Positions 1,761 through 26,260 of a stretch of 64,000 nt of DNA are shown here, one piece after another (within the stretch, counting starts at the first letter, position 1; the number at the start of each line of letters is the position of its first letter). Position numbers and translations under genes: made by a program. This DNA comes from Naegleria gruberi. Lineage: Eukaryota. Where the stretch lies: the NCBI GenBank assembly GCA_000004985.1, contig GG738910.1. One strand, given 5' to 3'. The notes beneath the pieces are model-generated. The model ran no database searches and was not told the origin of the DNA. It saw only the letters and a program-made list of their open reading frames with translations.

Positions 1761-1789
1761 AGTCACACACTACTGATGGATTGAAAAAA

Positions 1790-2665
1790 ATGTTACCAAC
1801 ATTTAATTCCTCAAATCTTCACACTAGAAAGAGAGGAGATTTATCATCTTCATCGTCATCGTCATCTTCATCAAATCAACAACAACAACAACATTTTAAA
1901 TCAAACAAGTCTAATTGTTTGAGTAAAATAGTTTATTTAATAATAGGCTTGTTATTATTTATTATAGTATTATATTATTTATTATTTAATAGTAATAATA
2001 ATATTGATACTAATAGTAATAATATTGATACTAGTACTACAACAATTACAACTACTACCAATAATAATGATTTAACAATAACAACAAATAATGATGATAA
2101 ATTAGTATCAAATAATAATAATAATAATAATAATATTGAAAATGTACTAGTGGATAATAACATTAAATCATCATCATCATCATCCAATAATAATGAACCA
2201 CAACAACATCCACAACCAAATCCACAAGAACAAACACAACATGAACAAACACAACAATCGGATCAACAAGTACAAACTAATGAACCACAAGCACAACCAT
2301 CTCCTCAACCACAAGCACCTCAACAAGTACCACCAACACAACAACAAGAAGTAGAACATTCAGTAGTTGAAGAAGAAAAGAAAGAAACTCCATCAAATAT
2401 TCCACCACCACTATTAAAACGTGAAAAGACAGAAAAGGAGAAACAACAAGATTTAATATTTGAAGAAATTGCTAAATTATTAACTAATCCAGATCAAACA
2501 AGTGAAGGATCCTATGGATGGTATAGAAAACAATTAGATACCAATAATAGATTAGGTAATACTTTATTTGAAGATCCTATAATGACTAAATTAGGATTTC
2601 AAGATACAGTTACAACAAGTGAAGTATTATTTCACTATTTTAGAACATTTAATACAACACAAGAA
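1790..2665 (+). CDS. 5' part of a gene truncated by the 5.3-kb gap. Poly-Ser/Gln N-terminus, one TM segment (IVYLIIGLLLFIIVLYYLLF), Q/P-rich linker, then a globular region (GSYGWYRKQLDTNNRLGNTLFEDPIMTKLGFQDTV...).
   Basis: ORF from the first ATG (1790; the track start at 1781 is TTG) runs into the N-gap at 2666. Composition is typical of dictyostelid coding sequence. Function unknown. Confidence 0.45.
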
Positions 2666-5600
2666 NNNNNNNNNNNNNNNNNNNNNNNNNNNNNNNNNNN
2701 NNNNNNNNNNNNNNNNNNNNNNNNNNNNNNNNNNNNNNNNNNNNNNNNNNNNNNNNNNNNNNNNNNNNNNNNNNNNNNNNNNNNNNNNNNNNNNNNNNNN
2801 NNNNNNNNNNNNNNNNNNNNNNNNNNNNNNNNNNNNNNNNNNNNNNNNNNNNNNNNNNNNNNNNNNNNNNNNNNNNNNNNNNNNNNNNNNNNNNNNNNNN
2901 NNNNNNNNNNNNNNNNNNNNNNNNNNNNNNNNNNNNNNNNNNNNNNNNNNNNNNNNNNNNNNNNNNNNNNNNNNNNNNNNNNNNNNNNNNNNNNNNNNNN
3001 NNNNNNNNNNNNNNNNNNNNNNNNNNNNNNNNNNNNNNNNNNNNNNNNNNNNNNNNNNNNNNNNNNNNNNNNNNNNNNNNNNNNNNNNNNNNNNNNNNNN
3101 NNNNNNNNNNNNNNNNNNNNNNNNNNNNNNNNNNNNNNNNNNNNNNNNNNNNNNNNNNNNNNNNNNNNNNNNNNNNNNNNNNNNNNNNNNNNNNNNNNNN
3201 NNNNNNNNNNNNNNNNNNNNNNNNNNNNNNNNNNNNNNNNNNNNNNNNNNNNNNNNNNNNNNNNNNNNNNNNNNNNNNNNNNNNNNNNNNNNNNNNNNNN
3301 NNNNNNNNNNNNNNNNNNNNNNNNNNNNNNNNNNNNNNNNNNNNNNNNNNNNNNNNNNNNNNNNNNNNNNNNNNNNNNNNNNNNNNNNNNNNNNNNNNNN
3401 NNNNNNNNNNNNNNNNNNNNNNNNNNNNNNNNNNNNNNNNNNNNNNNNNNNNNNNNNNNNNNNNNNNNNNNNNNNNNNNNNNNNNNNNNNNNNNNNNNNN
3501 NNNNNNNNNNNNNNNNNNNNNNNNNNNNNNNNNNNNNNNNNNNNNNNNNNNNNNNNNNNNNNNNNNNNNNNNNNNNNNNNNNNNNNNNNNNNNNNNNNNN
3601 NNNNNNNNNNNNNNNNNNNNNNNNNNNNNNNNNNNNNNNNNNNNNNNNNNNNNNNNNNNNNNNNNNNNNNNNNNNNNNNNNNNNNNNNNNNNNNNNNNNN
3701 NNNNNNNNNNNNNNNNNNNNNNNNNNNNNNNNNNNNNNNNNNNNNNNNNNNNNNNNNNNNNNNNNNNNNNNNNNNNNNNNNNNNNNNNNNNNNNNNNNNN
3801 NNNNNNNNNNNNNNNNNNNNNNNNNNNNNNNNNNNNNNNNNNNNNNNNNNNNNNNNNNNNNNNNNNNNNNNNNNNNNNNNNNNNNNNNNNNNNNNNNNNN
3901 NNNNNNNNNNNNNNNNNNNNNNNNNNNNNNNNNNNNNNNNNNNNNNNNNNNNNNNNNNNNNNNNNNNNNNNNNNNNNNNNNNNNNNNNNNNNNNNNNNNN
4001 NNNNNNNNNNNNNNNNNNNNNNNNNNNNNNNNNNNNNNNNNNNNNNNNNNNNNNNNNNNNNNNNNNNNNNNNNNNNNNNNNNNNNNNNNNNNNNNNNNNN
4101 NNNNNNNNNNNNNNNNNNNNNNNNNNNNNNNNNNNNNNNNNNNNNNNNNNNNNNNNNNNNNNNNNNNNNNNNNNNNNNNNNNNNNNNNNNNNNNNNNNNN
4201 NNNNNNNNNNNNNNNNNNNNNNNNNNNNNNNNNNNNNNNNNNNNNNNNNNNNNNNNNNNNNNNNNNNNNNNNNNNNNNNNNNNNNNNNNNNNNNNNNNNN
4301 NNNNNNNNNNNNNNNNNNNNNNNNNNNNNNNNNNNNNNNNNNNNNNNNNNNNNNNNNNNNNNNNNNNNNNNNNNNNNNNNNNNNNNNNNNNNNNNNNNNN
4401 NNNNNNNNNNNNNNNNNNNNNNNNNNNNNNNNNNNNNNNNNNNNNNNNNNNNNNNNNNNNNNNNNNNNNNNNNNNNNNNNNNNNNNNNNNNNNNNNNNNN
4501 NNNNNNNNNNNNNNNNNNNNNNNNNNNNNNNNNNNNNNNNNNNNNNNNNNNNNNNNNNNNNNNNNNNNNNNNNNNNNNNNNNNNNNNNNNNNNNNNNNNN
4601 NNNNNNNNNNNNNNNNNNNNNNNNNNNNNNNNNNNNNNNNNNNNNNNNNNNNNNNNNNNNNNNNNNNNNNNNNNNNNNNNNNNNNNNNNNNNNNNNNNNN
4701 NNNNNNNNNNNNNNNNNNNNNNNNNNNNNNNNNNNNNNNNNNNNNNNNNNNNNNNNNNNNNNNNNNNNNNNNNNNNNNNNNNNNNNNNNNNNNNNNNNNN
4801 NNNNNNNNNNNNNNNNNNNNNNNNNNNNNNNNNNNNNNNNNNNNNNNNNNNNNNNNNNNNNNNNNNNNNNNNNNNNNNNNNNNNNNNNNNNNNNNNNNNN
4901 NNNNNNNNNNNNNNNNNNNNNNNNNNNNNNNNNNNNNNNNNNNNNNNNNNNNNNNNNNNNNNNNNNNNNNNNNNNNNNNNNNNNNNNNNNNNNNNNNNNN
5001 NNNNNNNNNNNNNNNNNNNNNNNNNNNNNNNNNNNNNNNNNNNNNNNNNNNNNNNNNNNNNNNNNNNNNNNNNNNNNNNNNNNNNNNNNNNNNNNNNNNN
5101 NNNNNNNNNNNNNNNNNNNNNNNNNNNNNNNNNNNNNNNNNNNNNNNNNNNNNNNNNNNNNNNNNNNNNNNNNNNNNNNNNNNNNNNNNNNNNNNNNNNN
5201 NNNNNNNNNNNNNNNNNNNNNNNNNNNNNNNNNNNNNNNNNNNNNNNNNNNNNNNNNNNNNNNNNNNNNNNNNNNNNNNNNNNNNNNNNNNNNNNNNNNN
5301 NNNNNNNNNNNNNNNNNNNNNNNNNNNNNNNNNNNNNNNNNNNNNNNNNNNNNNNNNNNNNNNNNNNNNNNNNNNNNNNNNNNNNNNNNNNNNNNNNNNN
5401 NNNNNNNNNNNNNNNNNNNNNNNNNNNNNNNNNNNNNNNNNNNNNNNNNNNNNNNNNNNNNNNNNNNNNNNNNNNNNNNNNNNNNNNNNNNNNNNNNNNN
5501 NNNNNNNNNNNNNNNNNNNNNNNNNNNNNNNNNNNNNNNNNNNNNNNNNNNNNNNNNNNNNNNNNNNNNNNNNNNNNNNNNNNNNNNNNNNNNNNNNNNN

Positions 5601-7981
5601 NNNNNNNNNNNNNNNNNNNNNNNNNNNNNNNNNNNNNNNNNNNNNNNNNNNNNNNNNNNNNNNNNNNNNNNNNNNNNNNNNNNNNNNNNNNNNNNNNNNN
5701 NNNNNNNNNNNNNNNNNNNNNNNNNNNNNNNNNNNNNNNNNNNNNNNNNNNNNNNNNNNNNNNNNNNNNNNNNNNNNNNNNNNNNNNNNNNNNNNNNNNN
5801 NNNNNNNNNNNNNNNNNNNNNNNNNNNNNNNNNNNNNNNNNNNNNNNNNNNNNNNNNNNNNNNNNNNNNNNNNNNNNNNNNNNNNNNNNNNNNNNNNNNN
5901 NNNNNNNNNNNNNNNNNNNNNNNNNNNNNNNNNNNNNNNNNNNNNNNNNNNNNNNNNNNNNNNNNNNNNNNNNNNNNNNNNNNNNNNNNNNNNNNNNNNN
6001 NNNNNNNNNNNNNNNNNNNNNNNNNNNNNNNNNNNNNNNNNNNNNNNNNNNNNNNNNNNNNNNNNNNNNNNNNNNNNNNNNNNNNNNNNNNNNNNNNNNN
6101 NNNNNNNNNNNNNNNNNNNNNNNNNNNNNNNNNNNNNNNNNNNNNNNNNNNNNNNNNNNNNNNNNNNNNNNNNNNNNNNNNNNNNNNNNNNNNNNNNNNN
6201 NNNNNNNNNNNNNNNNNNNNNNNNNNNNNNNNNNNNNNNNNNNNNNNNNNNNNNNNNNNNNNNNNNNNNNNNNNNNNNNNNNNNNNNNNNNNNNNNNNNN
6301 NNNNNNNNNNNNNNNNNNNNNNNNNNNNNNNNNNNNNNNNNNNNNNNNNNNNNNNNNNNNNNNNNNNNNNNNNNNNNNNNNNNNNNNNNNNNNNNNNNNN
6401 NNNNNNNNNNNNNNNNNNNNNNNNNNNNNNNNNNNNNNNNNNNNNNNNNNNNNNNNNNNNNNNNNNNNNNNNNNNNNNNNNNNNNNNNNNNNNNNNNNNN
6501 NNNNNNNNNNNNNNNNNNNNNNNNNNNNNNNNNNNNNNNNNNNNNNNNNNNNNNNNNNNNNNNNNNNNNNNNNNNNNNNNNNNNNNNNNNNNNNNNNNNN
6601 NNNNNNNNNNNNNNNNNNNNNNNNNNNNNNNNNNNNNNNNNNNNNNNNNNNNNNNNNNNNNNNNNNNNNNNNNNNNNNNNNNNNNNNNNNNNNNNNNNNN
6701 NNNNNNNNNNNNNNNNNNNNNNNNNNNNNNNNNNNNNNNNNNNNNNNNNNNNNNNNNNNNNNNNNNNNNNNNNNNNNNNNNNNNNNNNNNNNNNNNNNNN
6801 NNNNNNNNNNNNNNNNNNNNNNNNNNNNNNNNNNNNNNNNNNNNNNNNNNNNNNNNNNNNNNNNNNNNNNNNNNNNNNNNNNNNNNNNNNNNNNNNNNNN
6901 NNNNNNNNNNNNNNNNNNNNNNNNNNNNNNNNNNNNNNNNNNNNNNNNNNNNNNNNNNNNNNNNNNNNNNNNNNNNNNNNNNNNNNNNNNNNNNNNNNNN
7001 NNNNNNNNNNNNNNNNNNNNNNNNNNNNNNNNNNNNNNNNNNNNNNNNNNNNNNNNNNNNNNNNNNNNNNNNNNNNNNNNNNNNNNNNNNNNNNNNNNNN
7101 NNNNNNNNNNNNNNNNNNNNNNNNNNNNNNNNNNNNNNNNNNNNNNNNNNNNNNNNNNNNNNNNNNNNNNNNNNNNNNNNNNNNNNNNNNNNNNNNNNNN
7201 NNNNNNNNNNNNNNNNNNNNNNNNNNNNNNNNNNNNNNNNNNNNNNNNNNNNNNNNNNNNNNNNNNNNNNNNNNNNNNNNNNNNNNNNNNNNNNNNNNNN
7301 NNNNNNNNNNNNNNNNNNNNNNNNNNNNNNNNNNNNNNNNNNNNNNNNNNNNNNNNNNNNNNNNNNNNNNNNNNNNNNNNNNNNNNNNNNNNNNNNNNNN
7401 NNNNNNNNNNNNNNNNNNNNNNNNNNNNNNNNNNNNNNNNNNNNNNNNNNNNNNNNNNNNNNNNNNNNNNNNNNNNNNNNNNNNNNNNNNNNNNNNNNNN
7501 NNNNNNNNNNNNNNNNNNNNNNNNNNNNNNNNNNNNNNNNNNNNNNNNNNNNNNNNNNNNNNNNNNNNNNNNNNNNNNNNNNNNNNNNNNNNNNNNNNNN
7601 NNNNNNNNNNNNNNNNNNNNNNNNNNNNNNNNNNNNNNNNNNNNNNNNNNNNNNNNNNNNNNNNNNNNNNNNNNNNNNNNNNNNNNNNNNNNNNNNNNNN
7701 NNNNNNNNNNNNNNNNNNNNNNNNNNNNNNNNNNNNNNNNNNNNNNNNNNNNNNNNNNNNNNNNNNNNNNNNNNNNNNNNNNNNNNNNNNNNNNNNNNNN
7801 NNNNNNNNNNNNNNNNNNNNNNNNNNNNNNNNNNNNNNNNNNNNNNNNNNNNNNNNNNNNNNNNNNNNNNNNNNNNNNNNNNNNNNNNNNNNNNNNNNNN
7901 NNNNNNNNNNNNNNNNNNNNNNNNNNNNNNNNNNNNNNNNNNNNNNNNNNNNNNNNNNNNNNNNNNNNNNNNNNNNNNNNN
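2666..7981. other. Assembly gap (5316 N). The three long 'ORFs' spanning it (1781..8020, 2619..8921, complement 2635..8016) are artefacts.
   Basis: Run of n. Probably collapsed repeat or family copies, given the flanking family genes. Confidence 0.99.
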
Positions 7982-8189
7982 AAATTTATTAGGATCATCA
8001 ACATTACCAACAACAAATAATGATCAAATTATTGGTGCATATAAATTATTGAATAATTTATTATTATTAGAATCTAATCATTCAGAGCCTTCTCATCATC
8101 CACAACAACAACAACAACAAGTAAATGATAGTACTAGTACTTTTATTACTAATAATAGTAATTTACATAATTATGATCTTCCTTCTAAT

Positions 8190-8921
8190 ATGAATAAATC
8201 AGAATCTCAAGATTCAAAACATCAATTAACTAGTAATACTAACAATAATAATAAGAAAAGAAAGAATGATCACATTCAAACTAGTAATTCTAATAATAAT
8301 TCTAATAGTAATGTTAATAATAATTCTAATAGTAATGGTAATAATTCTAATAATTCTAATTCTAATTCTAATTATAATAATGGTAATAATACTAATAATG
8401 GTAACATGTCATTTATAGATGAAACTAATAATGTAACATTAAAAGCTAAAGTGAATCAACGAAATAATAATTTAAATATTAAACAATCAAGATTGAGAAA
8501 ACCATTACAAAATGATAAATTATTAAAAAATTATTTTGAATTTGATAAACAACAACAATCAAATGATTTAATTAAATTTAAATTAATTGATACTACTATT
8601 AATAATATAAATGGTAATATTAAAGATAATTATGTAAATACATTTAATAATAGAATTGGGTGTAGAAAACCATCTATTGATCAAATTATTACAAGTGAAA
8701 AAGTTACATTTAATAATATTATAAATAATAATTTAATTAATAATATTGTAGTATATGATAATAATGATCAACAAGATAATTATTCATTACCTAAAGAAGA
8801 AGAAGAAGCAGATAATTTATTAAATATTGAAGATGAATCAATTTTCAATAATATTGAATTAAATAATGAAAGTGATGGTAATAGTTTTATCAGTTCATTT
8901 TCATTTCTATTTAAAGAATAA
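8190..8921 (+). CDS. Fam1 member b: MSFIDETNNVTLKAKVNQRNNNLNIKQSRLRKPLQNDKLLKNYFEFDKQQQSNDL..., IGCRKPSIDQIITSEKVTF..., ending EEEEADNLLNIEDESIFNNIELNNESDGNSFISSFSFLFKE.
   Basis: The frame is open from the gap. The first ATG after the gap is at 8190 (MNKSES...) and the MSFIDE Met is at 8406. All three family motifs are present, so the 5' end is uncertain. Confidence 0.5.
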   Translation: MNKSESQDSKHQLTSNTNNNNKKRKNDHIQTSNSNNNSNSNVNNNSNSNGNNSNNSNSNSNYNNGNNTNNGNMSFIDETNNVTLKAKVNQRNNNLNIKQSRLRKPLQNDKLLKNYFEFDKQQQSNDLIKFKLIDTTINNINGNIKDNYVNTFNNRIGCRKPSIDQIITSEKVTFNNIINNNLINNIVVYDNNDQQDNYSLPKEEEEADNLLNIEDESIFNNIELNNESDGNSFISSFSFLFKE

Positions 8922-9230
8922 TAAATTTATATTTAAACTTATTATAATCACCAAGGGATTCTATCAAATTTGTTAATAATCGTTTTACGCTAATGATTAG
9001 CAAGTAATATTGAGCCTACATGTTGAGATTCATATGTGAGAATCCCTCAAGAATTTGGAATCCATGGAGAGAGCATGAACTTTGGTTCCTTAATTTAAAC
9101 ATTAAGAAGGAGTGCCAACAGTGGTTGGTGACATGAAAGTCAAAACGACTGATTTATTCACAATCACAGTTCTGACATGTAATTGCTGAATTGTGTTTTA
9201 GAGATTATGTTTTTATTTTCATGCCATGTT

Positions 9231-9320
9231 CGCACAATACAGCAATAGTACTATCGTCCGAATTCGTCATGAAATCTGGAATTGTCAATTATTTCTTTCT
9301 ATTGTAGTGTATTGCTTCCG
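9231..9320 (+). promoter_or_regulatory. Conserved upstream module of Fam2 genes (...ACTATCGTCCGAATTCGTCATGAAATCTGGAATTGT...TTATTTCTTTCTATTGT...TATTGCTTC). Repeated at 10756-10850 and absent from the third copy.
   Basis: ~90-bp near-identical block located ~120-200 bp upstream of the ATGs of Fam2 copies a and b. The track ORF 9226..9420 over it is rejected as coding. Confidence 0.3.
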
Positions 9321-9442
9321 AGTTTCGTTCAATACAATTCAATACAAGGAAAGTATTATTGGAAATATGAGAGTGGATGAAATAGAGGATGCAAGTTTCT
9401 TTTGCTTGATGCTCAGTTGAATATTCACAAAAAAACAACATT

Positions 9443-10429
9443 ATGATGAATAATAACTCGACTTCAAGTTGGATAAATGAATTTTCCTCTACTGCTCATA
9501 CCTGTTCAGTTGATGTTTTTTGTGGAATGGTCTCTCCATCATTCTCCAACAACAAGCCTTCAATAACAATGAACAATACAATTACAGATGATGAATGTAT
9601 TGAACCAAGTCTAAATCTTGATGTTATTGATTTTATTCAGAGTTGGGAATTATTAAAGATGATGACAACTCCAAAGCAACAATTATTTAATAGAAAGCCT
9701 TTTGACAAGCCTTCTATTCACCAAATGTCAGCCTTCAATAATATCCAATGTACTAAAATCACCTCAACTGTTATGAATTCTATTGATGCTGATATTAAGT
9801 GCACTCCATCACACTCATCCACATGCCATATTGTATTACCATCACCAACTGAGACATTATCTCTACTGACACTTAACACCTCACCTCCTCATCAGCAACC
9901 CTTCAATGCTAATACTATTGAAAATAGCCTGACCAATACCATTTCTAATACTGACATTGCTGATAAGGTACTTTTAACCAATTTAGAATCATATCAATTT
10001 CCCAAGAATCCTTATCATGAACATTATGATCAATCACCACCACCATCAAATGATATATCCATGATGCCACTCCAACAACAAACTAATGTAAACAATACAT
10101 TCAACAAGAAGGATGATAATCGTATTCTAAAGAGAAAGAGAAAGATTTCTAATGTATCTTCATTCGAATCAGAAAAGAGAAAAACCTCAATTTCATCCAC
10201 CACACCACCTACAACATGTTCAAGTAATTCATCCTCAATTGGTAATAATAGTTCATTATCAACAAATGTGCACTCACAACAATCATTCAATAATTGTATT
10301 ATAATTTCAAATCCAAAACATTTGAAAAGAAGAAGAAAATATCAAAAGAGAAAGAATTCAGCCAATACAAATCCTGCTCAAACTCAAATGGAATTTCACT
10401 TTCCAGTTTGGACTTTTCATTTAGAATAA
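9443..10429 (+). CDS. Fam2 member a (328 aa): N-terminal MMNNNSTSSWINE...CIEPSLNLDVIDFIQSWELLKMMTTPKQQLFNRKP, S/T/P-rich middle with KRKRKISNVSSFESEKRKTS, C-terminal basic block NPKHLKRRRKYQKRKNSANTNPAQTQMEFHFPVWTFHLE.
   Basis: ATG ORF. Paralogous to 11002, 11657, 15288, 16323 and complement 26260. No recognisable Pfam-type domain. The basic block is NLS-like. Confidence 0.6.
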   Translation: MMNNNSTSSWINEFSSTAHTCSVDVFCGMVSPSFSNNKPSITMNNTITDDECIEPSLNLDVIDFIQSWELLKMMTTPKQQLFNRKPFDKPSIHQMSAFNNIQCTKITSTVMNSIDADIKCTPSHSSTCHIVLPSPTETLSLLTLNTSPPHQQPFNANTIENSLTNTISNTDIADKVLLTNLESYQFPKNPYHEHYDQSPPPSNDISMMPLQQQTNVNNTFNKKDDNRILKRKRKISNVSSFESEKRKTSISSTTPPTTCSSNSSSIGNNSSLSTNVHSQQSFNNCIIISNPKHLKRRRKYQKRKNSANTNPAQTQMEFHFPVWTFHLE

Positions 10430-10592: not shown

Positions 10593-11001
10593 AAACTTCT
10601 GTAAAGAATATACAATTTATGATCAAGTAATAGTGAGATTGTATAATTTCGAAATACGATGAACCAGAATTTACCCTAACACTTACTGACATTCTATTAA
10701 GAAGGAGTGCCACAGCTGACGACATGAAAGAACTGTAATTGTTTAAGAGATTTTATTCGCACTGTACAACAATAGAACTATCGTCCGAATTAGTCATGAA
10801 ATCTAGGAATTGTAGATTATTTCTTTCTATTGTTGGGTATTGCTTCAGGATTTTGTATTTTTAAGGACCTCAATTACTAACATTATTCTTCAAGTACATC
10901 AAGTATTGGAAATATGAGAGAATAAATTGGGCGAGATGCAATTCTCTTTGGAGTTTATGCAGAAGAAATATTCAATGAATATTCTCAAAAAAACAAACAT
11001 T

Positions 11002-11317
11002 ATGATGAGCAATAACTTGACTTCAAGTTGGATAAATGAATATTCCTCTCCTGCTCATACCTGTACAGTTGATGTTCTTTGTGGAATGGTCACTCAATTT
11101 TCATCATCATTCTCAAACTACTCAATTAACAATCAATGTATTGAACCAAGTCTAAATCTTGATGTTATTGAGTTTATGCAGAGTTGGGAATTATTAAAGA
11201 TGATGACAACTCCAAAGCAACAATTATTTAATAGACAGCCTGTTGACAAGCCTTCTATTCAACAAATGTCAGCCTTCAATAATATCCAATGTACTAACAT
11301 CAGCTCAACAGTTATGA
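11002..11317 (+). CDS. Fam2 member b, 5' part only (MMSNNLTSSWINEYSSPAHTCTVDVLCGMV...EPSLNLDVIEFMQSWELLKMMTTPKQQLFNRQP...), truncated by a 50-N gap at 11318-11367.
   Basis: Same N-terminal motifs as 9443 and 11657. An upstream in-frame ATG at 10936 (MQFSLEFMQKKYSMNILKK) is also possible. Confidence 0.5.
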
Positions 11318-11367
11318 NNNNNNNNNNNNNNNNNNNNNNNNNNNNNNNNNNNNNNNNNNNNNNNNNN
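11318..11367. other. Assembly gap (50 N)
   Basis: Run of n. Confidence 0.99.
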
Positions 11368-11656
11368 AACTTCTGTAAAGAATATACAATTTATGATCAA
11401 GTAATAGTGAGATTGTATAATTTCGAAATACGATGAACCAGAATTTACCCTAACACTTACTGACATTCTATTAAGAAGGAGTGCCACAGCATAGTTGTTT
11501 AAGGATTTTGTATTTTTAAGGACCTCAATTACTAACATTATTCTTCAAGTACATCAAGTATTGGAAATATGAGAGAATAAATTGGGCGAGATGCAATTCT
11601 CTTTGGAGTTTATGCAGAAGAAATATTCAATGAATATTCTCAAAAAAACAAACATT

Positions 11657-12640
11657 ATGATGAACAATAACTCGACTTCAAGTTGGATAAATGAATATTC
11701 CTCTCCTGCTCATACCTGTACAGTTGATGTTCTTTGTGGAATGGTCACTCAATTTTCATCATCATTCTCAAACTACTCAATTAACAATCAATGTGTTGAA
11801 CCAAGTCTGAATCTTGATGTTATTGATTTTATGCAGAGTTGGGAATTATTAAAGATGATGACAAATCCAAAGCAACAATTATTTAATAGAAAGCCTAATG
11901 ACAAGCCTTCTATTCAACAAATGTCAGCCTTCAATAATATCCAATGTACTAACATCAGCTCAACTGTTATGAATCCTATTGATGATCATGATGATGATAT
12001 GAAGGACACTCCACCACACTTATCCAAATCCCATATTGTATTTCCATCACCTCAACCATCAACTCAACTGTTCCTATCACCAACAGAAACATTATCTCTG
12101 ACTCTTAACACCTCACCTCCTCAACCATTCAATAACCATAACGAAAATAGCCTGACCAATACCATTTCTAATACTGACACTGCTGATAAGGTACTTTTAC
12201 CCAATTTAGAATCATATCAATTTCTGATGAGCATTAAGAATCCTTATCAACAATATGTGGATCAATCACCACCATCATCATCAATTGAAACATCCATGAT
12301 GCCACTCCAACAACAAACTAATGTAAACAATACATTCAATGATAATCGTATTCTAAAGAGAAAGAGAAAGATTTCTAATGTATCTTCATTCGAATCAGAA
12401 AAGAGAAAAACCTCAAGTTCATCCTCCTCATCATCTACAAGTAATGTATCCTCAATTGGTAATAACAGTTCATTATCAACAACATTCAAAACTCCACTCA
12501 ATAATTGTATTGTAATTTCAAATCCAAAACATTTGAAAAGAAGAAGAAAATATCAAAAGAGAAAGAATTCAGCCAATACAAATCCAGCTCAAACTCAAAT
12601 GGAATTTCATTTTCCAGTATGGACATTTCATTTAGAATAA
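11657..12640 (+). CDS. Fam2 member c (~328 aa from ATG 11657; 352 aa if the upstream ATG 11591 is used): same architecture as a, ending NPKHLKRRRKYQKRKNSANTNPAQTQMEFHFPVWTFHLE.
   Basis: ATG ORF, ~85-90% identical to copy a at both the N- and C-termini. The proximal promoter is identical to copy b (10851-11001 vs 11505-11656). Confidence 0.6.
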   Translation: MMNNNSTSSWINEYSSPAHTCTVDVLCGMVTQFSSSFSNYSINNQCVEPSLNLDVIDFMQSWELLKMMTNPKQQLFNRKPNDKPSIQQMSAFNNIQCTNISSTVMNPIDDHDDDMKDTPPHLSKSHIVFPSPQPSTQLFLSPTETLSLTLNTSPPQPFNNHNENSLTNTISNTDTADKVLLPNLESYQFLMSIKNPYQQYVDQSPPSSSIETSMMPLQQQTNVNNTFNDNRILKRKRKISNVSSFESEKRKTSSSSSSSSTSNVSSIGNNSSLSTTFKTPLNNCIVISNPKHLKRRRKYQKRKNSANTNPAQTQMEFHFPVWTFHLE

Positions 12641-13170: not shown

Positions 13171-13677
13171 ATGAATCCAAACAAACAATCGAATAGAAGA
13201 AAGTCTAAAGCACTCAAATTAACTGTTGTCGATTTTTGTTCTTCCAATCCAACATCAACTAGAAGATCTAACAATGATGATGTTGTCGATGATAATTGTA
13301 AAGTAATGACAAGTAAATATACAGAATACTTTTCAAATAATTCAAAGCCTTTCCAAGTCATTTCATTTCCATTCAAGCCTTCGAATACTTGCTCATCTGG
13401 AATTCAAAAACAACCAAAGAAAAAGAGAATTGAATCGCATCATGATGATCAATTTGGTAAAATACAATTTGGTAATAATAATACAGTTTGTAGTGGTGGC
13501 GGAGGTGATGATTCAGTAGTGGCAAGCCTTCATCAAGATCGAATTGAAGAATCGTCTTCTAATGATCAGCAGCAGCCTTCAACACCAACTTTAATTCAAT
13601 CATTACCATCAATGGATAAAAAAAGACAAAGAAGAACCTCAATTACTATTAGAGAATTATTAAATTATGATGATTAA
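13171..13677 (+). CDS. Fam3 member a (168 aa): MNPNKQSNRRKSKALKLTVVDFCSSNPTS...CKVMTSKYTEYFSNNSKPFQVISFP...MDKKRQRRTSITIRELLNYDD.
   Basis: ATG ORF. ~85% identical to complement(26909..27415). Shares the C-terminal R-R-T-[SA]-I-T-x-x-E-L-L-N motif with complement(20797..21369). Confidence 0.55.
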   Translation: MNPNKQSNRRKSKALKLTVVDFCSSNPTSTRRSNNDDVVDDNCKVMTSKYTEYFSNNSKPFQVISFPFKPSNTCSSGIQKQPKKKRIESHHDDQFGKIQFGNNNTVCSGGGGDDSVVASLHQDRIEESSSNDQQQPSTPTLIQSLPSMDKKRQRRTSITIRELLNYDD

Positions 13678-14518
13678 TGCCAGATCGTGAGATGAAAATT
13701 TTAAGGATTTGGCAATTATTGAATAAAGACTTGATGTTATTTGAAAAGATTTCAAAGTTGGTTCAATCCTCAATCTCCAGACGTGGCCTACCAACCTTAT
13801 TAAAAGATGAAATACATTGAGGATTCGAATATTTTCTTCTAATTTTTGTTGCTGTAAAATGAAGAGCGGGAAAATTATTCTCAACACACTTTCTATTTTA
13901 AATCCATTCAAAAGTCCATAATGCTCCTTTAAAGATATTCCACTCTTTGATTGCAGGTTTTAATCTTTGATGACTTTCAATATTAATTATAACACACGAG
14001 TTCAGTTCATCAATTAATTGTTAAATATTGGCGCATGTGGAGCTCCATGTATAGCATGTATTTCATTGTTATCCGACATGAGTACTTTCACTGATGAAAC
14101 AAGTCTTTACATAACCAGTTAACACATGCACACATGCACATGCAACAAATTGAATGCGTTGAGTATTATGAGTTACATGCATGCATATGTGAACATTGTT
14201 TTCTGTTGTGTGAAGGGTAATGATGTGTTTAATGACTGACGAAGACAATTTTGAATCTCAAAATAGGAAATAAGTGTACCCTTACATGGAGATTAAATCT
14301 CTCTTTTTTATGCTCCAATCGTTCACCTGTTGATTGGTTGAGTTTCTTTAATTGTATTGTTTGCATTGATTCGTGTTAATGTTTGTACTGACTCGTTCAC
14401 AAAAGGAACATTTGAGAGAGATTGTAAGCCATGCTTTGTGCTCAAGATAGTAAGTCATAGTATCGAATAAAGTATCCCACAGAAAATCCAACACAAGGCT
14501 CAGAAAAAAAACGAACAA

Positions 14519-15064
14519 ATGCCAAGTGGGTTGAGCAGGAAAATCCCTTCAAAATTGAGAAAACAAATCGACCACGATAAATTCAAACAATTTTACTTTG
14601 TTATGGTGCCAAATAGTAAACTAAACAAAACTAAATGTAGAGATGAAATTAGTAGGAATGAAGAATATACAGTAATGGATTTTAATACAATTCAGAGGTC
14701 AAATAGTGAAATGATGTCAAGTAAAATTATTGAATCTTTGTTTCATTTTCATGTTTCAGAGAAAACTGATACAGAAAATGAAACGAATGGAATGAAGGTT
14801 TCTAATAGCGAAGGTAGTGTTTTGAATACCATTGTTCATCCAAAGGAAAGTACGGACAGTAATAATGGTTGTAGATATAATTTCCAATCAATGTGTTTCC
14901 CACATTCAATTTTGACTAATCAACAATCTGAAAAAAGATCAGAATCATCATCATTACTAAATTCAAAATTAATGCTCTCCTTAGATTATGAAGGAATTGT
15001 TGAACTATTAACTGATGAACAATCTCCATATTATCAAATGTTGAAAAAACCAATATTTTGGTAA
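14519..15064 (+). CDS. Hypothetical protein (181 aa), no recognisable domain
   Basis: ATG ORF of moderate length between family genes. No paralog in the window. Confidence 0.3.
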   Translation: MPSGLSRKIPSKLRKQIDHDKFKQFYFVMVPNSKLNKTKCRDEISRNEEYTVMDFNTIQRSNSEMMSSKIIESLFHFHVSEKTDTENETNGMKVSNSEGSVLNTIVHPKESTDSNNGCRYNFQSMCFPHSILTNQQSEKRSESSSLLNSKLMLSLDYEGIVELLTDEQSPYYQMLKKPIFW

Positions 15065-15287: not shown

Positions 15288-15937
15288 TTGTTCAGTATCC
15301 ANNNNNNNNNNNNNNNNNNNNNNNNNNNNNNNNNNNNNNNNNNNNNNNNNNATGTTGATGTACCCTCTCCATTTAATATTCATTGTGGAATAGTCTCTCC
15401 ATCATCAATGTCATCCTCCTCCTCTTCTATCAATACCAGTAACAATGAATTGCCAAGTTTAAATCTTGATATTGTTGATTTTATGCAGAGTTGGAAAATA
15501 TTACAGACAATCAAACAAGTTCATCACCAACAAGATGACAACGCTTTGTTTTTCATTCAGATGAACTAGTGAAAGATCAACAATTAATTAGTTCCTCATT
15601 AGTAGTATTAAACAATTCTGATCACAATGAGGCACTAGAAACGTTTCAACTTCCAACAATATTCACCACCACCAAGAATGAAAATACTACCATGCCCAAT
15701 ATCTCATCAATCTCAAAGAAGAGAAAGATTTCCTCTTCTTCATTCAAATATTATACAAGTCCAAATACAGAAAAGAAAATCTCAATTTCATCCACTACTT
15801 CTTGTATTGATAATTCAAATTCAAAACATTTGAAAAGAAGACGAAAATGTCAAAAGAGAAAGAATTCAGCCTATTCCAATCCAGCACAAACTCAAATGGA
15901 GTTTAATTTTCCAATATGGACTTTTCATATGGAATAA
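15288..15937 (+). pseudogene. Fam2 member d, disrupted: 49-N gap at 15302-15351 and a 2-bp indel relative to copy e around 15555-15565 that splits the reading frame (track ORFs 15288..15569 and 15569..15937). Retains SLNLDIVDFMQSWKIL and ...NSKHLKRRRKCQKRKNSAYSNPAQTQMEFNFPIWTFHME.
   Basis: Alignment by eye with copy e (16323..16928): d has 'gatgacaacgctttgtttttcattcag' where e has 'gatgacatctgctattttcattcaa' (+2 nt in d, in a T-run). Confidence 0.45.
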
Positions 15938-16322: not shown

Positions 16323-16928
16323 ATGCTGATAACCTCTTCTTCCACCTGTACATTCAATAGCAATTTCAGCAATACAATACAATATCAAGATAATGAGCCA
16401 ATTCTAAATCTTGATATTGTTGATTTCATGCAGAGTTGGGAATTATTCAAAATGACAACAACAAATCAACAAGATGACATCTGCTATTTTCATTCAAATG
16501 AACCATTGAAAGATCAACAATTAATTACTTCCTCATTAGTATTAAACAATTCTAACTACAATGAGGCATTAGAAACCTTTCCAATAACAATACCTCTGCC
16601 CACAACCAATAATGAAAATACTACCACGCTCAATACCATACCAATAATCAATAATCAGAAGAAGAGAAAGATTTCCTCTTCCTTCAAATATTATACAAGT
16701 CCAAATACAGAAAAGAAGAAGAAAATCTCAATTTCATCCACTTCTATTACTACTTCATCTTGTCATTGTTCAAATAATGTATATTGTAAATTATCTTGTA
16801 ATTGTATTGTAAATTCAAATCCAAAACATTTGAAAAGAAGAGAATATCAAAAGAGAAAGACCTATTCAAATTCAGCACAAGCTCAAATGGAATTTAATTT
16901 TCCAATATGGACTTTTCATTTGGAATAA
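16323..16928 (+). CDS. Fam2 member e (201 aa, short form): ...EPILNLDIVDFMQSWELFKMTTT...NPKHLKRREYQKRKTYSNSAQAQMEFNFPIWTFHLE.
   Basis: ATG ORF carrying both family motifs. The Cys-containing stretch SSCHCSNNVYCKLSCNC is unique to this copy. Confidence 0.55.
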   Translation: MLITSSSTCTFNSNFSNTIQYQDNEPILNLDIVDFMQSWELFKMTTTNQQDDICYFHSNEPLKDQQLITSSLVLNNSNYNEALETFPITIPLPTTNNENTTTLNTIPIINNQKKRKISSSFKYYTSPNTEKKKKISISSTSITTSSCHCSNNVYCKLSCNCIVNSNPKHLKRREYQKRKTYSNSAQAQMEFNFPIWTFHLE

Positions 16929-17515: not shown

Positions 17516-18061
17516 TTAATTGTAAAGGAATGAAATTGAACTGAGAAAGCTTTCACAATCATCAAATTCTACTGCTTCTTCTTCTTCTTCTTTTGAAGTA
17601 TTATCACTGCTTCCACTACTACTGCTTCCACCACTACTATTGTTGATTGTTAGTGATGATGATGAATATTCAATATTACTAGATGCATGTTGATTCAAAT
17701 TATTAGTATTATTCATAGTTTTGCATTTAACCTTTGTAATAATTGTATCCTTTACATTTTCACTAGTACCTGATGATAATGATGATGCATTCGAGCAAGT
17801 TGTAATATTTTCTGAAAAAGTATTGTCAGTAGATGCATTTGGTGGATTAATAATTTTGTAAATAGTTAAATCACTTTCTGTTAATTGTTGCTTATCAAAT
17901 TCAAAGTAATTTTTCAGTAAATTATCATTTTGTAATGGTTTTCTCAATCTCGATTGTTTAATTTTCAATTCCTTATTTCTCTTTTTCACTTTTGCTTTCT
18001 TTGTAACATTACTAGTTTCATCAATGAATGACATGTTGTTGGCATTCTGGTTCTTCTTCAT
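17516..18061 (-). CDS. Fam1 member c (181 aa): MKKNQNANNMSFIDETSNVTKKAKVKKRNKELKIKQSRLRKPLQNDNLLKNYFEFDKQQLTESDLTIYKI...EEEEEAVEFDDCESFLSSISFLYN.
   Basis: ATG ORF. Complete set of family motifs. Near-identical tandem paralog at 19195..19758. Confidence 0.6.
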   Translation of the reverse strand: MKKNQNANNMSFIDETSNVTKKAKVKKRNKELKIKQSRLRKPLQNDNLLKNYFEFDKQQLTESDLTIYKIINPPNASTDNTFSENITTCSNASSLSSGTSENVKDTIITKVKCKTMNNTNNLNQHASSNIEYSSSSLTINNSSGGSSSSGSSDNTSKEEEEEAVEFDDCESFLSSISFLYN

Positions 18062-24213: not shown

Positions 24214-24673
24214 ATGAAGAAGAATATCAACTCATCACAACATTTTACTGATGAAACTAAAAAGATTGTCAATAATTGTAGGAAGAGGGATGAGAATTTG
24301 AAAAGTCATCGACAACCCAGATTTAAAAAATCATTGAGAAATTCCAACTTTTTAAAGAATTATTTCGAGTTTGAAAGTGGTGATCATTCGAGAGATCAAT
24401 TAACAGTATACAAAATGAGGAATCAAAGTAATAGGCACCAATCAATTGAACATTGTAAGAAAAAAGATTGTTAATATTTCCAAAAATAGTAATTCCATTC
24501 CTGAAGCCTCCAATAATGACTCTTCTGCTTCAATACGAGACTTGCCAATGAATGTTTTCAATTATGAAAATAATATAATGATGATATTCAGCAATTTATT
24601 TAATTCTTCGTCACAGTTACCAAATGTGGAAGACGATGATTGCCAAAGTTTTCTAAGCTCTTTATCATTCTAA
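24214..24673 (+). pseudogene. Divergent Fam1 member f with a reading-frame break near 24445-24475: N-terminal ...FTDETKKIVNN...RQPRFKKSLRNSNFLKNYFEFESGDHSRDQLTVYKM, and a C-terminal part in another frame ending ...EDDDCQSFLSSLSF.
   Basis: Two adjacent track ORFs (24214..24474, 24446..24673) in different frames carry the N- and C-terminal family motifs. I could not find a GT..AG intron with compatible phase (GTAAGA at 24455 with AG at 24488 gives the wrong phase). Confidence 0.4.
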
Positions 24674-24809
24674 TATTGTATGTATAAATTTTATAAAAAA
24701 ACAATTTATTCTAAATGAAAACTCCATATTGGAAAGTGAAATTCCATTTGAGTTTGTGCTGGATTTGTATTGGTTGACTTCTTTTTCTTTTGATATTTTC
24801 GTCTTTTTT

Positions 24810-25370
24810 TCAAATGTTTTGGATTTGANNNNNNNNNNNNNNNNNNNNNNNNNNNNNNNNNNNNNNNNNNNNNNNNNNAAATGATAAATTCATTGGATAT
24901 ATTTCTTTAAATATTGGTAAATGTCTAATACTTTGATAATTTTGGGGCCATGCGTCCAAGCCTAATGAATGTTTCGTCTTGTTAAATCTTCTCTTTAATG
25001 TTGACAAGTGACAGTCCAATATTTTGGCAGCTTGTATTTGAGAGAGGTGTAAAACTCGAATCATTTCTTCATTGGAGATTGCTCTTGCTCTCTTGTATGA
25101 ATTAACAGGAGCTGCACTGAAAAAAGTTCCATATTTAGTTTCTCGTTTCTTCCAATTAAATAGAGAAACAGCTAATGGGCTATTATTATAATTTTCAATA
25201 TTATTATTATGAATGTTATTATTGGTGTTATTGGTAATGGATGTGGTAGTGGAAGATTTGGCAAAAGATATCAAAGTTATTGAAGATAGAGAGCTAGAGT
25301 TGCTATTCGAAAGTTTGCTCGAGTTTAGTTTAGTTGAAGGCTTGGAAATTTTAGATGAGTTTCTATTCAT
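24810..25370 (-). CDS. Small RWP-RK-like protein a (186 aa; Fam4). S/T/N-rich N-terminus. C-terminal ...AISNEEMIRVLHLSQIQAAKILDCHLSTLKRRFNKTKHSLGLDAWPQNYQSIRHLPIF... A 50-N gap at 24829-24878 lies inside the 3' end.
   Basis: ATG ORF. Spacing of L-x-AAK-L-x5-TLKR-x9-G-x3-WP fits the RWP-RK domain (PF02042) consensus, though it reads AWP not RWP. Paralog at 27707..28216. Confidence 0.5.
   Translation of the reverse strand: MNRNSSKISKPSTKLNSSKLSNSNSSSLSSITLISFAKSSTTTSITNNTNNNIHNNNIENYNNSPLAVSLFNWKKRETKYGTFFSAAPVNSYKRARAISNEEMIRVLHLSQIQAAKILDCHLSTLKRRFNKTKHSLGLDAWPQNYQSIRHLPIFKEIYPMNLSFXXXXXXXXXXXXXXXXXQIQNI
24829..24878. other. Assembly gap (50 N)
   Basis: Run of n. Confidence 0.99.
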
Positions 25371-25819: not shown

Positions 25820-26260
25820 TTATTCTAAACAATGTGGTGCAAAGTTCTTTAGAAATGTAGAANNNNNNNNNNNNNNNNNNNNNNNNNNNNNNNNNNNNNN
25901 NNNNNNNNNNNNACTGTTATTATCGATTGAAGAAACATCATTACTTGTAGATGATGTAGTGGATGAAATTGAGGTTTTTCTCTTCTTTAATGGTTGAGTG
26001 TTCGATAGCCGTGATGTGTATGAACTATTGTATTGAAAACTTTCTATATTATTAGTTAATAGAGTTGAATTATATTGATTACTACCACTAGCTGCACTCT
26101 CCTCCATCTGGTTGATGCTCATCTCTTGATTAAATATATTATTAATATAATTCATTGTAATATCAGCAGTATTAGTAATTATCTTTAAACATTCCCAACT
26201 TTTCATAAAATCATTAACATCAAGTTGTAATTTAATAGTATTATCATCACACTGATTCAT
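25820..26260 (-). CDS. Fam2 member f (minus strand; ATG at 26260, since the track start at 26332 is TTG): MNQCDDNTIKLQLDVNDFMKSWECLKIITN...KKRKTSISSTTSS... C-terminal region interrupted by the gap at 25862-25912.
   Basis: Retains a degenerate LDV-DFM-SWE-LK motif and a KKRKTS block. Divergent from copies a-e. Confidence 0.4.
   Translation of the reverse strand: MNQCDDNTIKLQLDVNDFMKSWECLKIITNTADITMNYINNIFNQEMSINQMEESAASGSNQYNSTLLTNNIESFQYNSSYTSRLSNTQPLKKRKTSISSTTSSTSNDVSSIDNNSXXXXXXXXXXXXXXXXXSTFLKNFAPHCLE
25862..25912. other. Assembly gap (~51 N)
   Basis: Run of n. Confidence 0.99.

What the first reader, a model, noticed from the sequence alone, without database searches (positions are those of the whole stretch)
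9443..10429. Fam2: novel family with a hydrophobic-acidic N-motif and an invariant basic C-terminal block ending WTFHLE
Six copies are present (9443, 11002, 11657, 15288, 16323, complement 26260). All conserve [CI]-I-E-P-[SI]-L-N-L-D-[VI]-[IV]-[DE]-F-[MI]-Q-S-W-[EK]-[LI]-[LF]-K-M near the N-terminus. All also conserve a C-terminal N-[PS]-K-H-L-K-R-R-[RE]-[KY]-x-Q-K-R-K-[NT]-[SY]-[AS]-x-[TS]-N-[PS]-A-Q-[TA]-Q-M-E-F-[HN]-F-P-[VI]-W-T-F-H-[LM]-E-stop. A second K/R block (KRKRKISNVSSFESEKRKTS) lies mid-protein. This layout, an acidic-hydrophobic LxxLL-like/9aaTAD-like motif plus strong bipartite NLS-like basic regions, is what one expects of a transcriptional regulator or nuclear adaptor. The last ~40 aa are the most conserved part across all copies, which suggests a functional C-terminal peptide.
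Basis: partly seen in the sequence, partly recalled or inferred. Interest (0 to 1): 0.6.

Follow-up and report, generated by a model that had tools for sequence, protein, structure and literature searches.

The report
Naegleria-only disordered protein family, two motifs
The repeated genes are real: they encode a small family of mostly unstructured proteins with two conserved short motifs, found only in the amoeba genus Naegleria (not a slime mould), with no described relatives and an untested, possibly nuclear, role.

Summary
The window is Naegleria gruberi, not a dictyostelid. Copy c3 (11657-12640) is 100% identical to the predicted protein NAEGRDRAFT_53197.

The family is real and protein-coding.
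- The N motif core is L-x-L-D-[VIL]-x-x-[FI]-x-x-x-[WY]. It occurs 6 times in the window.
- The C motif core is F-x-F-P-x-W-[TS]-F. It occurs 5 times.
- Shuffled sequence gives about 0 of either.

"Six copies" is overstated. There are three intact genes (c1, c3, c5). One copy (c4) is cut by a gap and has a 1-bp frameshift. One gene is split across scaffold gaps: c6 is its N half and the unlisted C end at 24706-24828(-) is the rest. c2 is a 97.5-100% partial duplicate of c3 next to a gap.

The C block is under purifying selection: dN/dS is 0.05 there and about 1.0 in the rest of c1 versus c3.

Exhaustive searches found relatives only in N. gruberi, N. fowleri, N. lovaniensis and three unnamed environmental contigs. 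N. fowleri and N. lovaniensis also carry tandem arrays. Nothing matched in Pfam, PDB sequences or viral contigs.

AlphaFold predicts disorder apart from one helix on the N motif.

A nuclear adaptor or transcription co-regulator role is plausible from the NLS-like K/R clusters and the F-x-x-x-W-x-x-L helix. It is untested. This is an ordinary orphan family of modest interest.

The parts
9443..10429 (+). Copy c1: intact single-exon gene, 328 aa. The public model NAEGRDRAFT_53196 (798 aa) fuses it to the upstream gene.
   Evidence: ORF; tblastn self-hit; the fused model P0008 ends with c1 residues from 'VDVFCGM' onward.
9611..9646 (+). N motif of c1 (LNLDVIDFIQSW). The equivalent segment of c5 is predicted helical.
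   Evidence: Regex scan; AlphaFold helix at c5 residues 32-47 with pLDDT 74-80.
10130..10189 (+). Mid-protein basic/serine block of c1 (KRKRKISNVSSFESEKRKTS). It fits a bipartite-NLS-like pattern and contains [KR][KR]x[ST] sites.
   Evidence: Pattern scan.
10310..10426 (+). C block of c1 (NPKHLKRRRKYQKRKNSANTNPAQTQMEFHFPVWTFHLE), the most constrained segment.
   Evidence: DNA alignment shows conservation ending just after the stop codon; dN/dS 0.05.
11002..11317 (+). Copy c2: N-terminal fragment only, ending at the 50-N gap. Probably a haplotype or assembly duplicate of c3.
   Evidence: 10840-11317 is 97.5% identical to 11495-11972, and 10594-10716 is 100% identical to 11368-11490. The protein fragment reads the same as the N terminus of P0005 on another scaffold (by eye).
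11657..12640 (+). Copy c3: intact gene, 327 aa from MMNNN. It corresponds to NAEGRDRAFT_53197 / XP_002670894, whose model starts 22 codons upstream.
   Evidence: 100% identity to P0001.
15352..15937 (+). Copy c4: starts behind the gap at 15302-15351. It has a 1-bp deletion near 15560, and the orthologue's start ATG reads GTA here. Pseudogene or sequence error.
   Evidence: Frame switch; alignment to the intact 197-aa environmental orthologue L001/P0003.
16323..16928 (+). Copy c5: intact gene, 201 aa. The public model NAEGRDRAFT_74018 covers only the last 158 aa and so omits the N motif.
25913..26260 (-). Copy c6: N-terminal half, ending at the gap at 25863-25912.
   Evidence: 86% nucleotide identity to L004 307-658.
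24706..24828 (-). Most likely the missing C end of c6.
   Evidence: tblastn hit at 85%; translation; L004 725-934 matches 24828-24634 including the 3' flank.

Best explanation
**Shown**
- These are paralogues of a protein-coding gene family restricted, as far as the databases go, to the genus Naegleria.
- The family sits in tandem arrays in N. gruberi (this window), N. fowleri and N. lovaniensis.
- Each protein (about 160-385 aa) has two short conserved segments separated by a fast-evolving linker. About 46-50% of each whole intact window copy is S, T, N, Q or P.
- The first segment is an N-proximal motif, L-x-L-D-[VIL]-x-[DE]-[FI]-x-x-x-[WY]-x-x-[LM]. Its second half is predicted helical.
- The second segment is a C block with the core M-x-F-x-F-P-x-x-T-F-H (W at the first x after P in most members). 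It is usually preceded by a run of K/R.
- The C block is under purifying selection. Between the closest paralogues the rest evolves at a nearly neutral rate.

**Inferred**
- The proteins are intrinsically disordered adaptors that work through these two docking motifs.
- The K-[KR]-x-[KR] clusters (KRKRK, KHLKRRRKYQKRK) would take them into the nucleus through the classical importin-alpha route.
- The F/W(Y)/L triad at positions i, i+4, i+7 would insert one helical face into a hydrophobic groove of a partner, as acidic activation domains do.
- The aromatic C motif would bind a second partner, or nucleic acid together with the basic run.
- The most likely role is therefore a Naegleria-specific nuclear co-regulator or bridge.
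For: **Family and organism**
- Organism and gene identity.
- Motif counts against shuffles.

**Coding constraint**
- Conservation ends at the stop codon.
- dN/dS is 0.05 in the C block and 0.99 in the rest for c1 vs c3. It is 0.27 for the c4 C-terminal part vs its environmental orthologue.
- All indels but one between c4 and that orthologue are multiples of 3.

**Distribution**
- A profile search of 1.84 billion representative proteins gave 6 credible hits. The named ones are N. gruberi or N. fowleri (FDP41_011837, E = 9e-6); P0003 and P0012 come from one environmental metagenome assembly.
- Further hits: N. lovaniensis C9374_000885 and C9374_000886, N. fowleri FDP41_006211 and FDP41_003472, and one unnamed Logan contig.
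- Tandem arrays of motif-bearing genes lie next to the N. fowleri and N. lovaniensis members.

**Structure and patterns**
- Two AlphaFold runs gave mean pLDDT 50-52 and pTM 0.17-0.18. The only substantial element was a helix at c5 residues 32-47 (pLDDT 74-80). The C end had pLDDT about 70 and no regular structure apart from a 4-residue helical turn at 184-187 in one run.
- K-[KR]-x-[KR] is present in 13 of 16 members. The D-[FI]-x-x-x-[WY]-x-x-hydrophobic triad is present in 14 of the 15 members that carry the N motif; the one miss (P0005) has E-F in place of D-F.
- The window copies have no N-terminal hydrophobic stretch that would suggest secretion (sequences, by inspection).
Against: - No experiment or expression data bear on function. 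No paper mentions the locus tags.
- The NLS and docking-helix readings rest on short patterns that are common in low-complexity proteins.
- The basic run before the C motif is weak in P0019, P0020 and the related array genes. P0018, P0020 and one N. lovaniensis array gene have no K-[KR]-x-[KR] cluster at all.
- The Kyte-Doolittle helical hydrophobic moment of the N motif is low in the N. gruberi copies, 0.06-0.16. Amphipathicity is therefore not supported by that measure.
- AlphaFold confidence for both motifs is only moderate, from alignments of 8-12 sequences.
Confidence: 0.4

Rival explanations
1. RNA-binding or nucleolar protein. The run KHLKRRRKYQKRK would act as an arginine/lysine-rich RNA-binding or nucleolar-targeting peptide. 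The adjacent aromatic motif (F, F, W, F) would stack on bases. The N-motif helix would recruit a partner to that RNA.
For: The most basic 15-mer of each intact copy sits directly before the aromatic core. The whole block of about 45 aa is the most constrained segment. The block has only moderate pLDDT and almost no regular structure, so folding only on binding is possible.
Against: There is no similarity to any RNA-binding family. P0019 and P0020 keep the aromatic core but have at most a weak basic run nearby.
Confidence: 0.2
2. The C block as a whole is only a transport signal, for example a transportin-type basic signal followed by a proline-hydrophobic element. The protein's activity would then lie in the N motif and the linker.
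For: The layout is a basic run, then 8-14 residues, then F-P-x-W, in the N. gruberi copies and in P0013 and P0017.
Against: The PY-NLS core pattern [RKH]-x(2-5)-P-Y does not occur at the motif in any of 16 members. The residue three positions before the P is H or N, so it is not conserved as basic. The strict conservation of M-x-F-x-F and T-F-H goes beyond what such a signal needs.
Confidence: 0.1
3. Mostly assembly redundancy and decaying pseudogenes. The apparent array would then be a few genes plus haplotype duplicates and fragments with no current function.
For: Four of seven pieces (c2, c4, c6, c7) abut 50-N gaps. c2 is a 97.5-100% duplicate of c3. c4 is frameshifted. A second scaffold carries near-identical models in the same gene order.
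Against: c1, c3 and c5 are intact and differ from each other (c1-c3 73% aa; c1-c5 49% over the C-terminal ~100 aa). The C block shows purifying selection. Orthologous arrays exist in two other species. Intact environmental orthologues exist for c4 and for c6/c7.
Confidence: 0.1
4. The conserved C block is a non-coding or out-of-frame DNA element, or a fragment of a mobile or viral element, rather than a protein segment.
For: The DNA is A-rich and of low complexity. The cluster has slightly lower G+C (27-32%) than the rest of the window (31-37%).
Against: Four of the five differences between c1 and c3 in the block are synonymous. Conservation ends at the stop codon. The amino-acid core is kept across species. 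Scans of viral contigs and JGI metagenome contigs found nothing.
Confidence: 0.02

Closest known systems
Uncharacterised Naegleria proteins in public databases: N. gruberi NAEGRDRAFT_53197, _53310, _74200, _74018, _71657, _76730, _76456; N. fowleri FDP41_011837, _006211, _003472; N. lovaniensis C9374_000885, _000886
   Same: c3 is 100% identical to NAEGRDRAFT_53197. The intact members share the N motif and the C core M-x-F-x-F-P-x-x-T-F-H; the models _74018 and _76456 are N-terminally truncated and lack the N motif.
   Different: None has a name, a Pfam domain or a described function. Several public models are truncated (74018, 74200) or fused to a neighbour (53196).
Acidic/hydrophobic transactivation helices such as p53 TAD1 (F19-x-x-x-W23-x-x-L26, 'FSDLWKLL'); comparison from my own knowledge
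   Same: The N. gruberi copies read D-F-[MIV]-Q-S-W-[EK]-[LI]-[LF] (P0004 has D-I), which is the same F/W/L spacing. The N. fowleri and N. lovaniensis members read F-x-x-x-Y-x-x-[LM]. The segment is predicted helical within a disordered protein.
   Different: There is no sequence homology and no evidence of transcriptional activation or of an MDM2/SWIB-type partner. The motif is preceded by a conserved L-x-L-D that p53 lacks.
Classical monopartite and bipartite nuclear localisation signals (SV40 large T PKKKRKV; nucleoplasmin KR-x10-KKKK); from my own knowledge
   Same: K-[KR]-x-[KR] clusters occur in 13 of 16 members. c1 and c3 carry RK-x(10-12)-KRK.
   Different: This is a pattern match only. 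Three members have no such cluster. Import has not been tested.
EAR repression motif (L-x-L-x-L) and C-terminal WRPW/Eh1 co-repressor motifs; from my own knowledge
   Same: L-x-L-D-[VIL] begins the N motif. It is strictly L-x-L-x-L at that position in P0013 (LQLDL); P0019, P0020 and the related N. fowleri array gene have L-M-L-[NK]-L two residues upstream. In N. gruberi an aromatic F-P-x-W lies at the extreme C terminus.
   Different: In most members the fifth residue at the motif position is V or I. The F-P-x-W core is internal in N. fowleri and N. lovaniensis. No TOPLESS- or Groucho-type partner was examined.

Membership tests
Any Pfam-A family | Score above the family's gathering threshold | tested here: not met
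   Whole proteins gave only SR-25 at 9.8-15.8 bits (cutoff 40) and an apicomplexan microprotein at 15.6 bits (cutoff 27). Isolated N and C motifs gave nothing above cutoff.
Any protein with a solved structure (PDB sequences) | Significant profile-to-sequence match | tested here: not met
   The best hit had E = 1.4 and lay in a low-complexity region.
Acidic activation domain / p53-TAD-like docking helix | Hydrophobic triad at i, i+4, i+7 on a helix within a disordered, acidic context | tested here: met
   D-[FI]-x-x-x-[WY]-x-x-hydrophobic is present in 14 of the 15 members that carry the N motif; P0005 has E-F instead of D-F. AlphaFold predicts a helix at c5 residues 32-47. The Kyte-Doolittle hydrophobic moment is low in the N. 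gruberi copies.
Acidic activation domain / p53-TAD-like docking helix | Activates transcription when tethered, or binds a co-activator or an MDM2/SWIB groove | not testable with these tools
   Needs a reporter assay or a binding assay.
Classical NLS | K-[KR]-x-[KR] cluster, or bipartite (K/R)2-x10-12-(K/R)3of5 | tested here: met
   c1: KRKR at 230, KRRR at 295, and a bipartite-like pattern at 231-248. c3 is the same. c5: KKRK at 113 and KKKK at 131. Three of 16 members have none.
Classical NLS | Importin-alpha-dependent nuclear accumulation | not testable with these tools
   No localisation data are available.
PY-NLS (transportin signal) | [RKH]-x(2-5)-P-Y following a basic or hydrophobic region | tested here: not met
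   No match at the C motif in any member. The only match anywhere is an unrelated KAQKISPY near the end of one N. lovaniensis gene.
EAR motif | Strict L-x-L-x-L or DLNxxP | tested here: inconclusive
   At the N-motif position, strict L-x-L-x-L occurs only in P0013 (LQLDL). The N. gruberi copies have L-N-L-D-[VI] there.
Other small gene families of the same cluster (the 'MSFIDET...NYFEFD' family and the 'MNPNKQS...ITIRELLNYDD' family) | Detectable profile-profile similarity | tested here: not met
   hhalign probability was 0.04% and 0.44% (E = 0.87 and 0.13).

The most novel reading that the evidence does not exclude
The two motifs could define a previously unknown pair of docking sites: the L-x-L-D-x-x-D-F-x-x-x-W/Y-x-x-L helix and the M-x-F-x-F-P-x-W-T-F-H aromatic core. 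The family would then be a heterolobosean-specific class of disordered nuclear co-regulators. It is expanded in N. gruberi inside a cluster of other fast-evolving small genes, including RWP-RK-like ones. That cluster appears to be assembled as two separate scaffolds. Under this reading the family would take part in a life-cycle decision such as amoeba-flagellate-cyst differentiation or a cryptic sexual cycle.
Probability: 0.08. Interest if true: 0.55.

Novelty: new member of a known kind. Interest (0 to 1): 0.27.

Why it matters
If the inference holds, this would be a genus-specific set of nuclear adaptors with two sharply conserved docking motifs. That would give a small, testable entry point into gene regulation in Naegleria, whose transcription machinery is poorly known and which includes the pathogen N. 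fowleri. As it stands, the result mainly does three things. It corrects the organism. It reduces the copy count to about five loci. It flags faulty public gene models (fused or truncated) and assembly problems in this region. Taxonomically restricted families of disordered proteins are common in protist genomes, so the existence of one more is not surprising.

Tried and rejected
1. **Common origin with the neighbouring small families.** I suspected a shared 'basic patch plus aromatic strand' module in the MSFIDET/NYFEFD family, the MNPNKQS/ITIRELLNYDD family and ORF 14519-15064. hhalign gave no support for the two families tested. tblastn found none of these in the N. fowleri or N. lovaniensis arrays.
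2. **A folded domain formed by the N and C motifs together.** Two AlphaFold runs gave pTM 0.17-0.18 and no strands. I did not run a fold search because the models are too poor for matches to mean anything.
3. **Viral or mobile origin of the cluster.** Scans of IMG/VR and JGI metagenome contigs found no relatives.
4. **Pfam and PDB similarity, including isolated motifs at E up to 10.** Nothing.
5. **PY-NLS reading of the C block.** The consensus is not met.
6. **Amphipathicity by Kyte-Doolittle hydrophobic moment.** Values are low for the N. gruberi copies, so I make no claim from this measure.
7. **Literature.** No paper contains the locus tags. Searches on Naegleria RWP-RK and on heterozygosity gave only general context.
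8. **Fetching the second N. gruberi scaffold.** I wanted to compare haplotypes, but its gene products are not in the contig index.
9. **Conserved linkage with RWP-RK-like genes.** It is not conserved. The N. fowleri and N. lovaniensis arrays lie between an ECH/3HCDH gene and a kinesin gene.
Full report
**Organism and setting**

That is wrong. Copy c3 (11657-12640) is 100% identical to 'predicted protein [Naegleria gruberi]' XP_002670894 / NAEGRDRAFT_53197. The window is therefore part of an N. gruberi scaffold.

**Checking the observation**

c1 at 9443-10429 is an intact 328-aa ORF. A tblastn of c1 against the window finds these pieces:
- c3 at 11657-12637, 73% identical over the full length
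- c2 at 11002-11316, residues 1-111 only
- c5 at 16395-16925
- c4 at 15453-15934
- c6 at 26248-26174, minus strand, N motif only

A regex scan of all six frames finds the N core L.LD[VIL]..[FI]...[WY] six times and the C core F.FP.W[TS]F five times. Fifty shuffles gave means of 0.08 and 0. The repeat is therefore far beyond chance.

The N pattern fits only c1 and c2, and the C pattern fits only c1, c3 and c4.

**State of the copies**

- c1, c3 and c5 are intact.
- c2 stops at the gap at 11318-11367. Its region duplicates the c3 region: 10594-10716 is 100% identical to 11368-11490, and 10840-11317 is 97.5% identical to 11495-11972. Its translated fragment reads the same as the N terminus of NAEGRDRAFT_53310, which lies on a different scaffold of 261 kb (by eye; scaffold). 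That scaffold carries the same gene order: EFC38099, EFC38100 and EFC38101 are the upstream-family gene, a c1-like gene and a c3-like gene. c2 is best read as a second haplotype placed in tandem at a gap, or as a very recent partial duplication.
- c4 begins behind the gap at 15302-15351 and changes frame near 15560. A 2.6-kb environmental contig (L001, 86% nucleotide identity) encodes an intact 197-aa orthologue, P0003. Against it, c4 has one 1-bp deletion, while every other indel is a multiple of three. The orthologue's ATG reads GTA in c4. c4 is a young pseudogene or a sequence error.
- c6 stops at the gap at 25863-25912. What follows the gap is not the family's C terminus. The 984 bp between the two 50-N gaps (24879-25862) are 86% identical to 27731-28563, which is the neighbouring RWP-RK-like gene and its upstream region.
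- A second environmental contig (L004) encodes one gene. It matches c6 at L004 307-658 and the orphan C end, including its 3' flank, at L004 725-934 (window 24828-24634). Only 66 bp are left unaccounted for. c6 and the orphan end are therefore most likely one gene interrupted by a misplaced contig.

The window thus holds about five loci rather than six full copies.

**Is the conserved C block translated?**

Yes. In a DNA alignment of the five C ends, conservation runs to the stop codon plus four bases (TAAATTG) and then collapses.

Between c1 and c3 the last 42 codons differ by 4 synonymous changes and 1 non-synonymous change, giving dN/dS of 0.05. The remaining codons differ by 20 synonymous and 74 non-synonymous changes, giving dN/dS of 0.99.

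For the c4 C-terminal part against its environmental orthologue, dN/dS is 0.27 overall and 0.14 in the C block.

**Distribution**

A word-seeded search of 5.8 billion proteins with c3 returned only N. gruberi proteins and one environmental protein.

An exhaustive HMMER profile search of 1.84 billion cluster representatives returned seven proteins at E ≤ 0.001:
- Five were N. gruberi models or close environmental relatives from a metagenome assembly.
- One was N. fowleri FDP41_011837 (P0013, E = 9.4e-6).
- One was a spurious repeat protein.

Profile searches that included the N. fowleri member added the following:
- N. lovaniensis C9374_000885 and C9374_000886
- N. fowleri FDP41_006211 and FDP41_003472
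- a 187-aa protein from a Logan run

Nothing was found in IMG/VR or in JGI metagenome contigs.

In N. fowleri (L002) and N. lovaniensis (L003) the member genes sit at the end of a tandem array of three to five small genes with no Pfam hit. Their translations show the same two motifs, for example LMLNLDVNDFMTCY ... ESMQFTFPSWTFHL and LLLKLDIDDFQKSY ... QQLMSFDFPIITFH. The flanks there are an ECH/3HCDH gene, a kinesin gene and a Zn_clus gene. They do not match this window, and the other small families of this window are absent from those arrays.

The family therefore occurs in all three Naegleria species examined, lies in a tandem array in each, and includes about five loci in this N. gruberi window.

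**Anatomy**

Across 12 diverse members, the invariant positions in c5 numbering are M189, F193, P194, T197, F198 and H199. Nearly invariant positions are L28, L30, D31, D34 and F191.

In all N. gruberi-type members exactly three residues (H-[LMV]-E) follow T-F. In N. fowleri and N. lovaniensis members 14-63 residues follow. A free C terminus is therefore not a requirement of the family.

The intact window copies as a whole are 46-50% S, T, N, Q or P.

Two AlphaFold2 runs on c5, with alignments of 8 and 12 sequences, agree:
- Mean pLDDT is 50-52 and pTM is 0.17-0.18.
- Most of the stretch between the two motifs has pLDDT below 50.
- The only substantial element is a helix at residues 32-47 (DIVDFMQSWELFKMTT, block pLDDT 74-80).
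- The last ~15 residues have pLDDT about 70 and no regular secondary structure apart from a 4-residue helical turn at 184-187 in the second run.

I did not run a fold search because the models are too poor for matches to mean anything.

Pfam and PDB-sequence searches gave nothing on whole proteins or on isolated motifs.

**How it most likely works**

What is shown is a disordered protein with two constrained short segments. The rest is inference.
- The K/R clusters fit the classical NLS pattern K-[KR]-x-[KR]. In c1 and c3 they also fit a bipartite pattern (RK-x10-12-KRK). Each is followed by serines in [KR][KR]x[ST] contexts.
- The N motif places F, W/Y and L/M at i, i+4 and i+7 on a predicted helix. 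From my own knowledge, this is the spacing seen in p53 TAD1 ('FSDLWKLL') and other activation helices that dock into hydrophobic grooves.
- The C core is aromatic and proline-containing and usually follows the most basic 15-mer of the protein. That suits either a second protein-docking site or nucleic-acid binding together with the basic run.

I commit to a nuclear adaptor or co-regulator that bridges two partners through these motifs, at about 0.4 confidence. The main rivals are an RNA-binding or nucleolar role (0.2), a transport-signal-only C block (0.1) and largely redundant or decaying copies (0.1).

Counter-evidence:
- Three of 16 members have no K-[KR]-x-[KR] cluster.
- The aromatic core persists without an adjacent basic run in P0019 and P0020.
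- The Kyte-Doolittle hydrophobic moment of the N. gruberi N motif is low.

**Comparison with what is known**

There is no homologue with a known function. The resemblances are all pattern-level leads, not memberships. They are to activation helices, classical NLSs, the EAR motif L-x-L-x-L (at the motif position strictly present only in P0013) and C-terminal WRPW-like motifs. The PY-NLS consensus was tested and is not met. No paper in the library mentions any of the locus tags.

**Verdict**

This is a real, conserved, Naegleria-restricted orphan family. It is already present in public databases as unnamed predicted proteins, and some of those models are faulty:
- NAEGRDRAFT_53196 fuses c1 to the upstream gene.
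- NAEGRDRAFT_74018 lacks the N motif.

The copy count and the claim that all copies conserve both motifs are overstated because of assembly gaps. The organism is wrong. The nuclear-regulator reading is plausible but untested. Interest is modest.

Noticed in passing
window 17516-18061(-), 19195-19758(-), 22828-23883(+), 24214-24474(+), and about 8000-8921(+): A second tandem family of small proteins. It has a conserved N-terminal block 'MSFIDETSNVT.K.KV.KRN..L.IKQSRLRKPLQNDNLLKNYFEFDKQ' and, in most copies, an acidic-hydrophobic C end such as '(E)nFDDC.SFLSSISFLY'. Pfam gave no hit for the two copies scanned (19195, 22828). hhalign found no relation to the family under study.
   Followed up: partly
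window 13171-13677(+), 26909-27415(-), 20797-21369(-): A third small family with N-terminal 'NRRKSKALKLTVVDF' and a C end 'KKRQRRTSITIRELLNYDD' / 'RKHRTAITFQELLN'. By eye the C end looks like the N-terminal arm and start of helix 1 of a homeodomain. The ORFs stop there, and I did not check for a downstream exon.
   Followed up: no
window 27707-28216(-) and 24879-25370(-): Two paralogous genes with a divergent RWP-RK-like segment ('...AAKILDCHLSTLKRRFNKTKHSLGLDAWPQNY'). The Pfam RWP-RK match has E = 0.0035 and 17.7 bits, below the cutoff of 29.3. The second copy sits on a 984-bp contig between two 50-N gaps and is 86% identical to the first.
   Followed up: partly
window 10594-11317 versus 11368-11972: A near-identical (97.5-100%) duplication flanks the 50-N gap, with a 123-bp indel. 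It is probably a haplotype assembled in tandem. Near-identical gene models (NAEGRDRAFT_74199, 74200, 53310) lie in the same order on a separate 261-kb scaffold, so this region may be assembled twice.
   Followed up: partly
window about 1700-10429: The public model NAEGRDRAFT_53196 (798 aa) joins an 'MSFIDET' family gene, sequence spanning the 5.3-kb N gap (2666-7981), and c1 from residue 'VDVFCGM' onward. It looks like a chimeric gene model.
   Followed up: partly
L001 1-932 versus window 54042-54696 and 13717-13748: The environmental contig that carries the c4 orthologue matches, in its first 930 bp, window 54042-54696 at 83%. That is about 40 kb away from c4 in this window. It could be a rearrangement between strains, a chimeric metagenome contig or a dispersed element. 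The window segment has no long ORF and is not repeated within the window.
   Followed up: partly
window 33438-33965(-) and 34397-34981(-): Two adjacent paralogous ORFs (175 and 194 aa) share 'EIGPDVNIDDLL.YGNK' and a similar C-terminal half. This is another small tandem pair of unknown function.
   Followed up: no
L004 307-360: In the environmental orthologue of c6 the start Met of c6 (MNQCDDN) reads T (TNQYDDN). The N motif is still in frame, with no upstream ATG in that ORF. The called gene therefore starts inside the motif (MKSWECL). The true start codon, or a possible intron, is unresolved.
   Followed up: no
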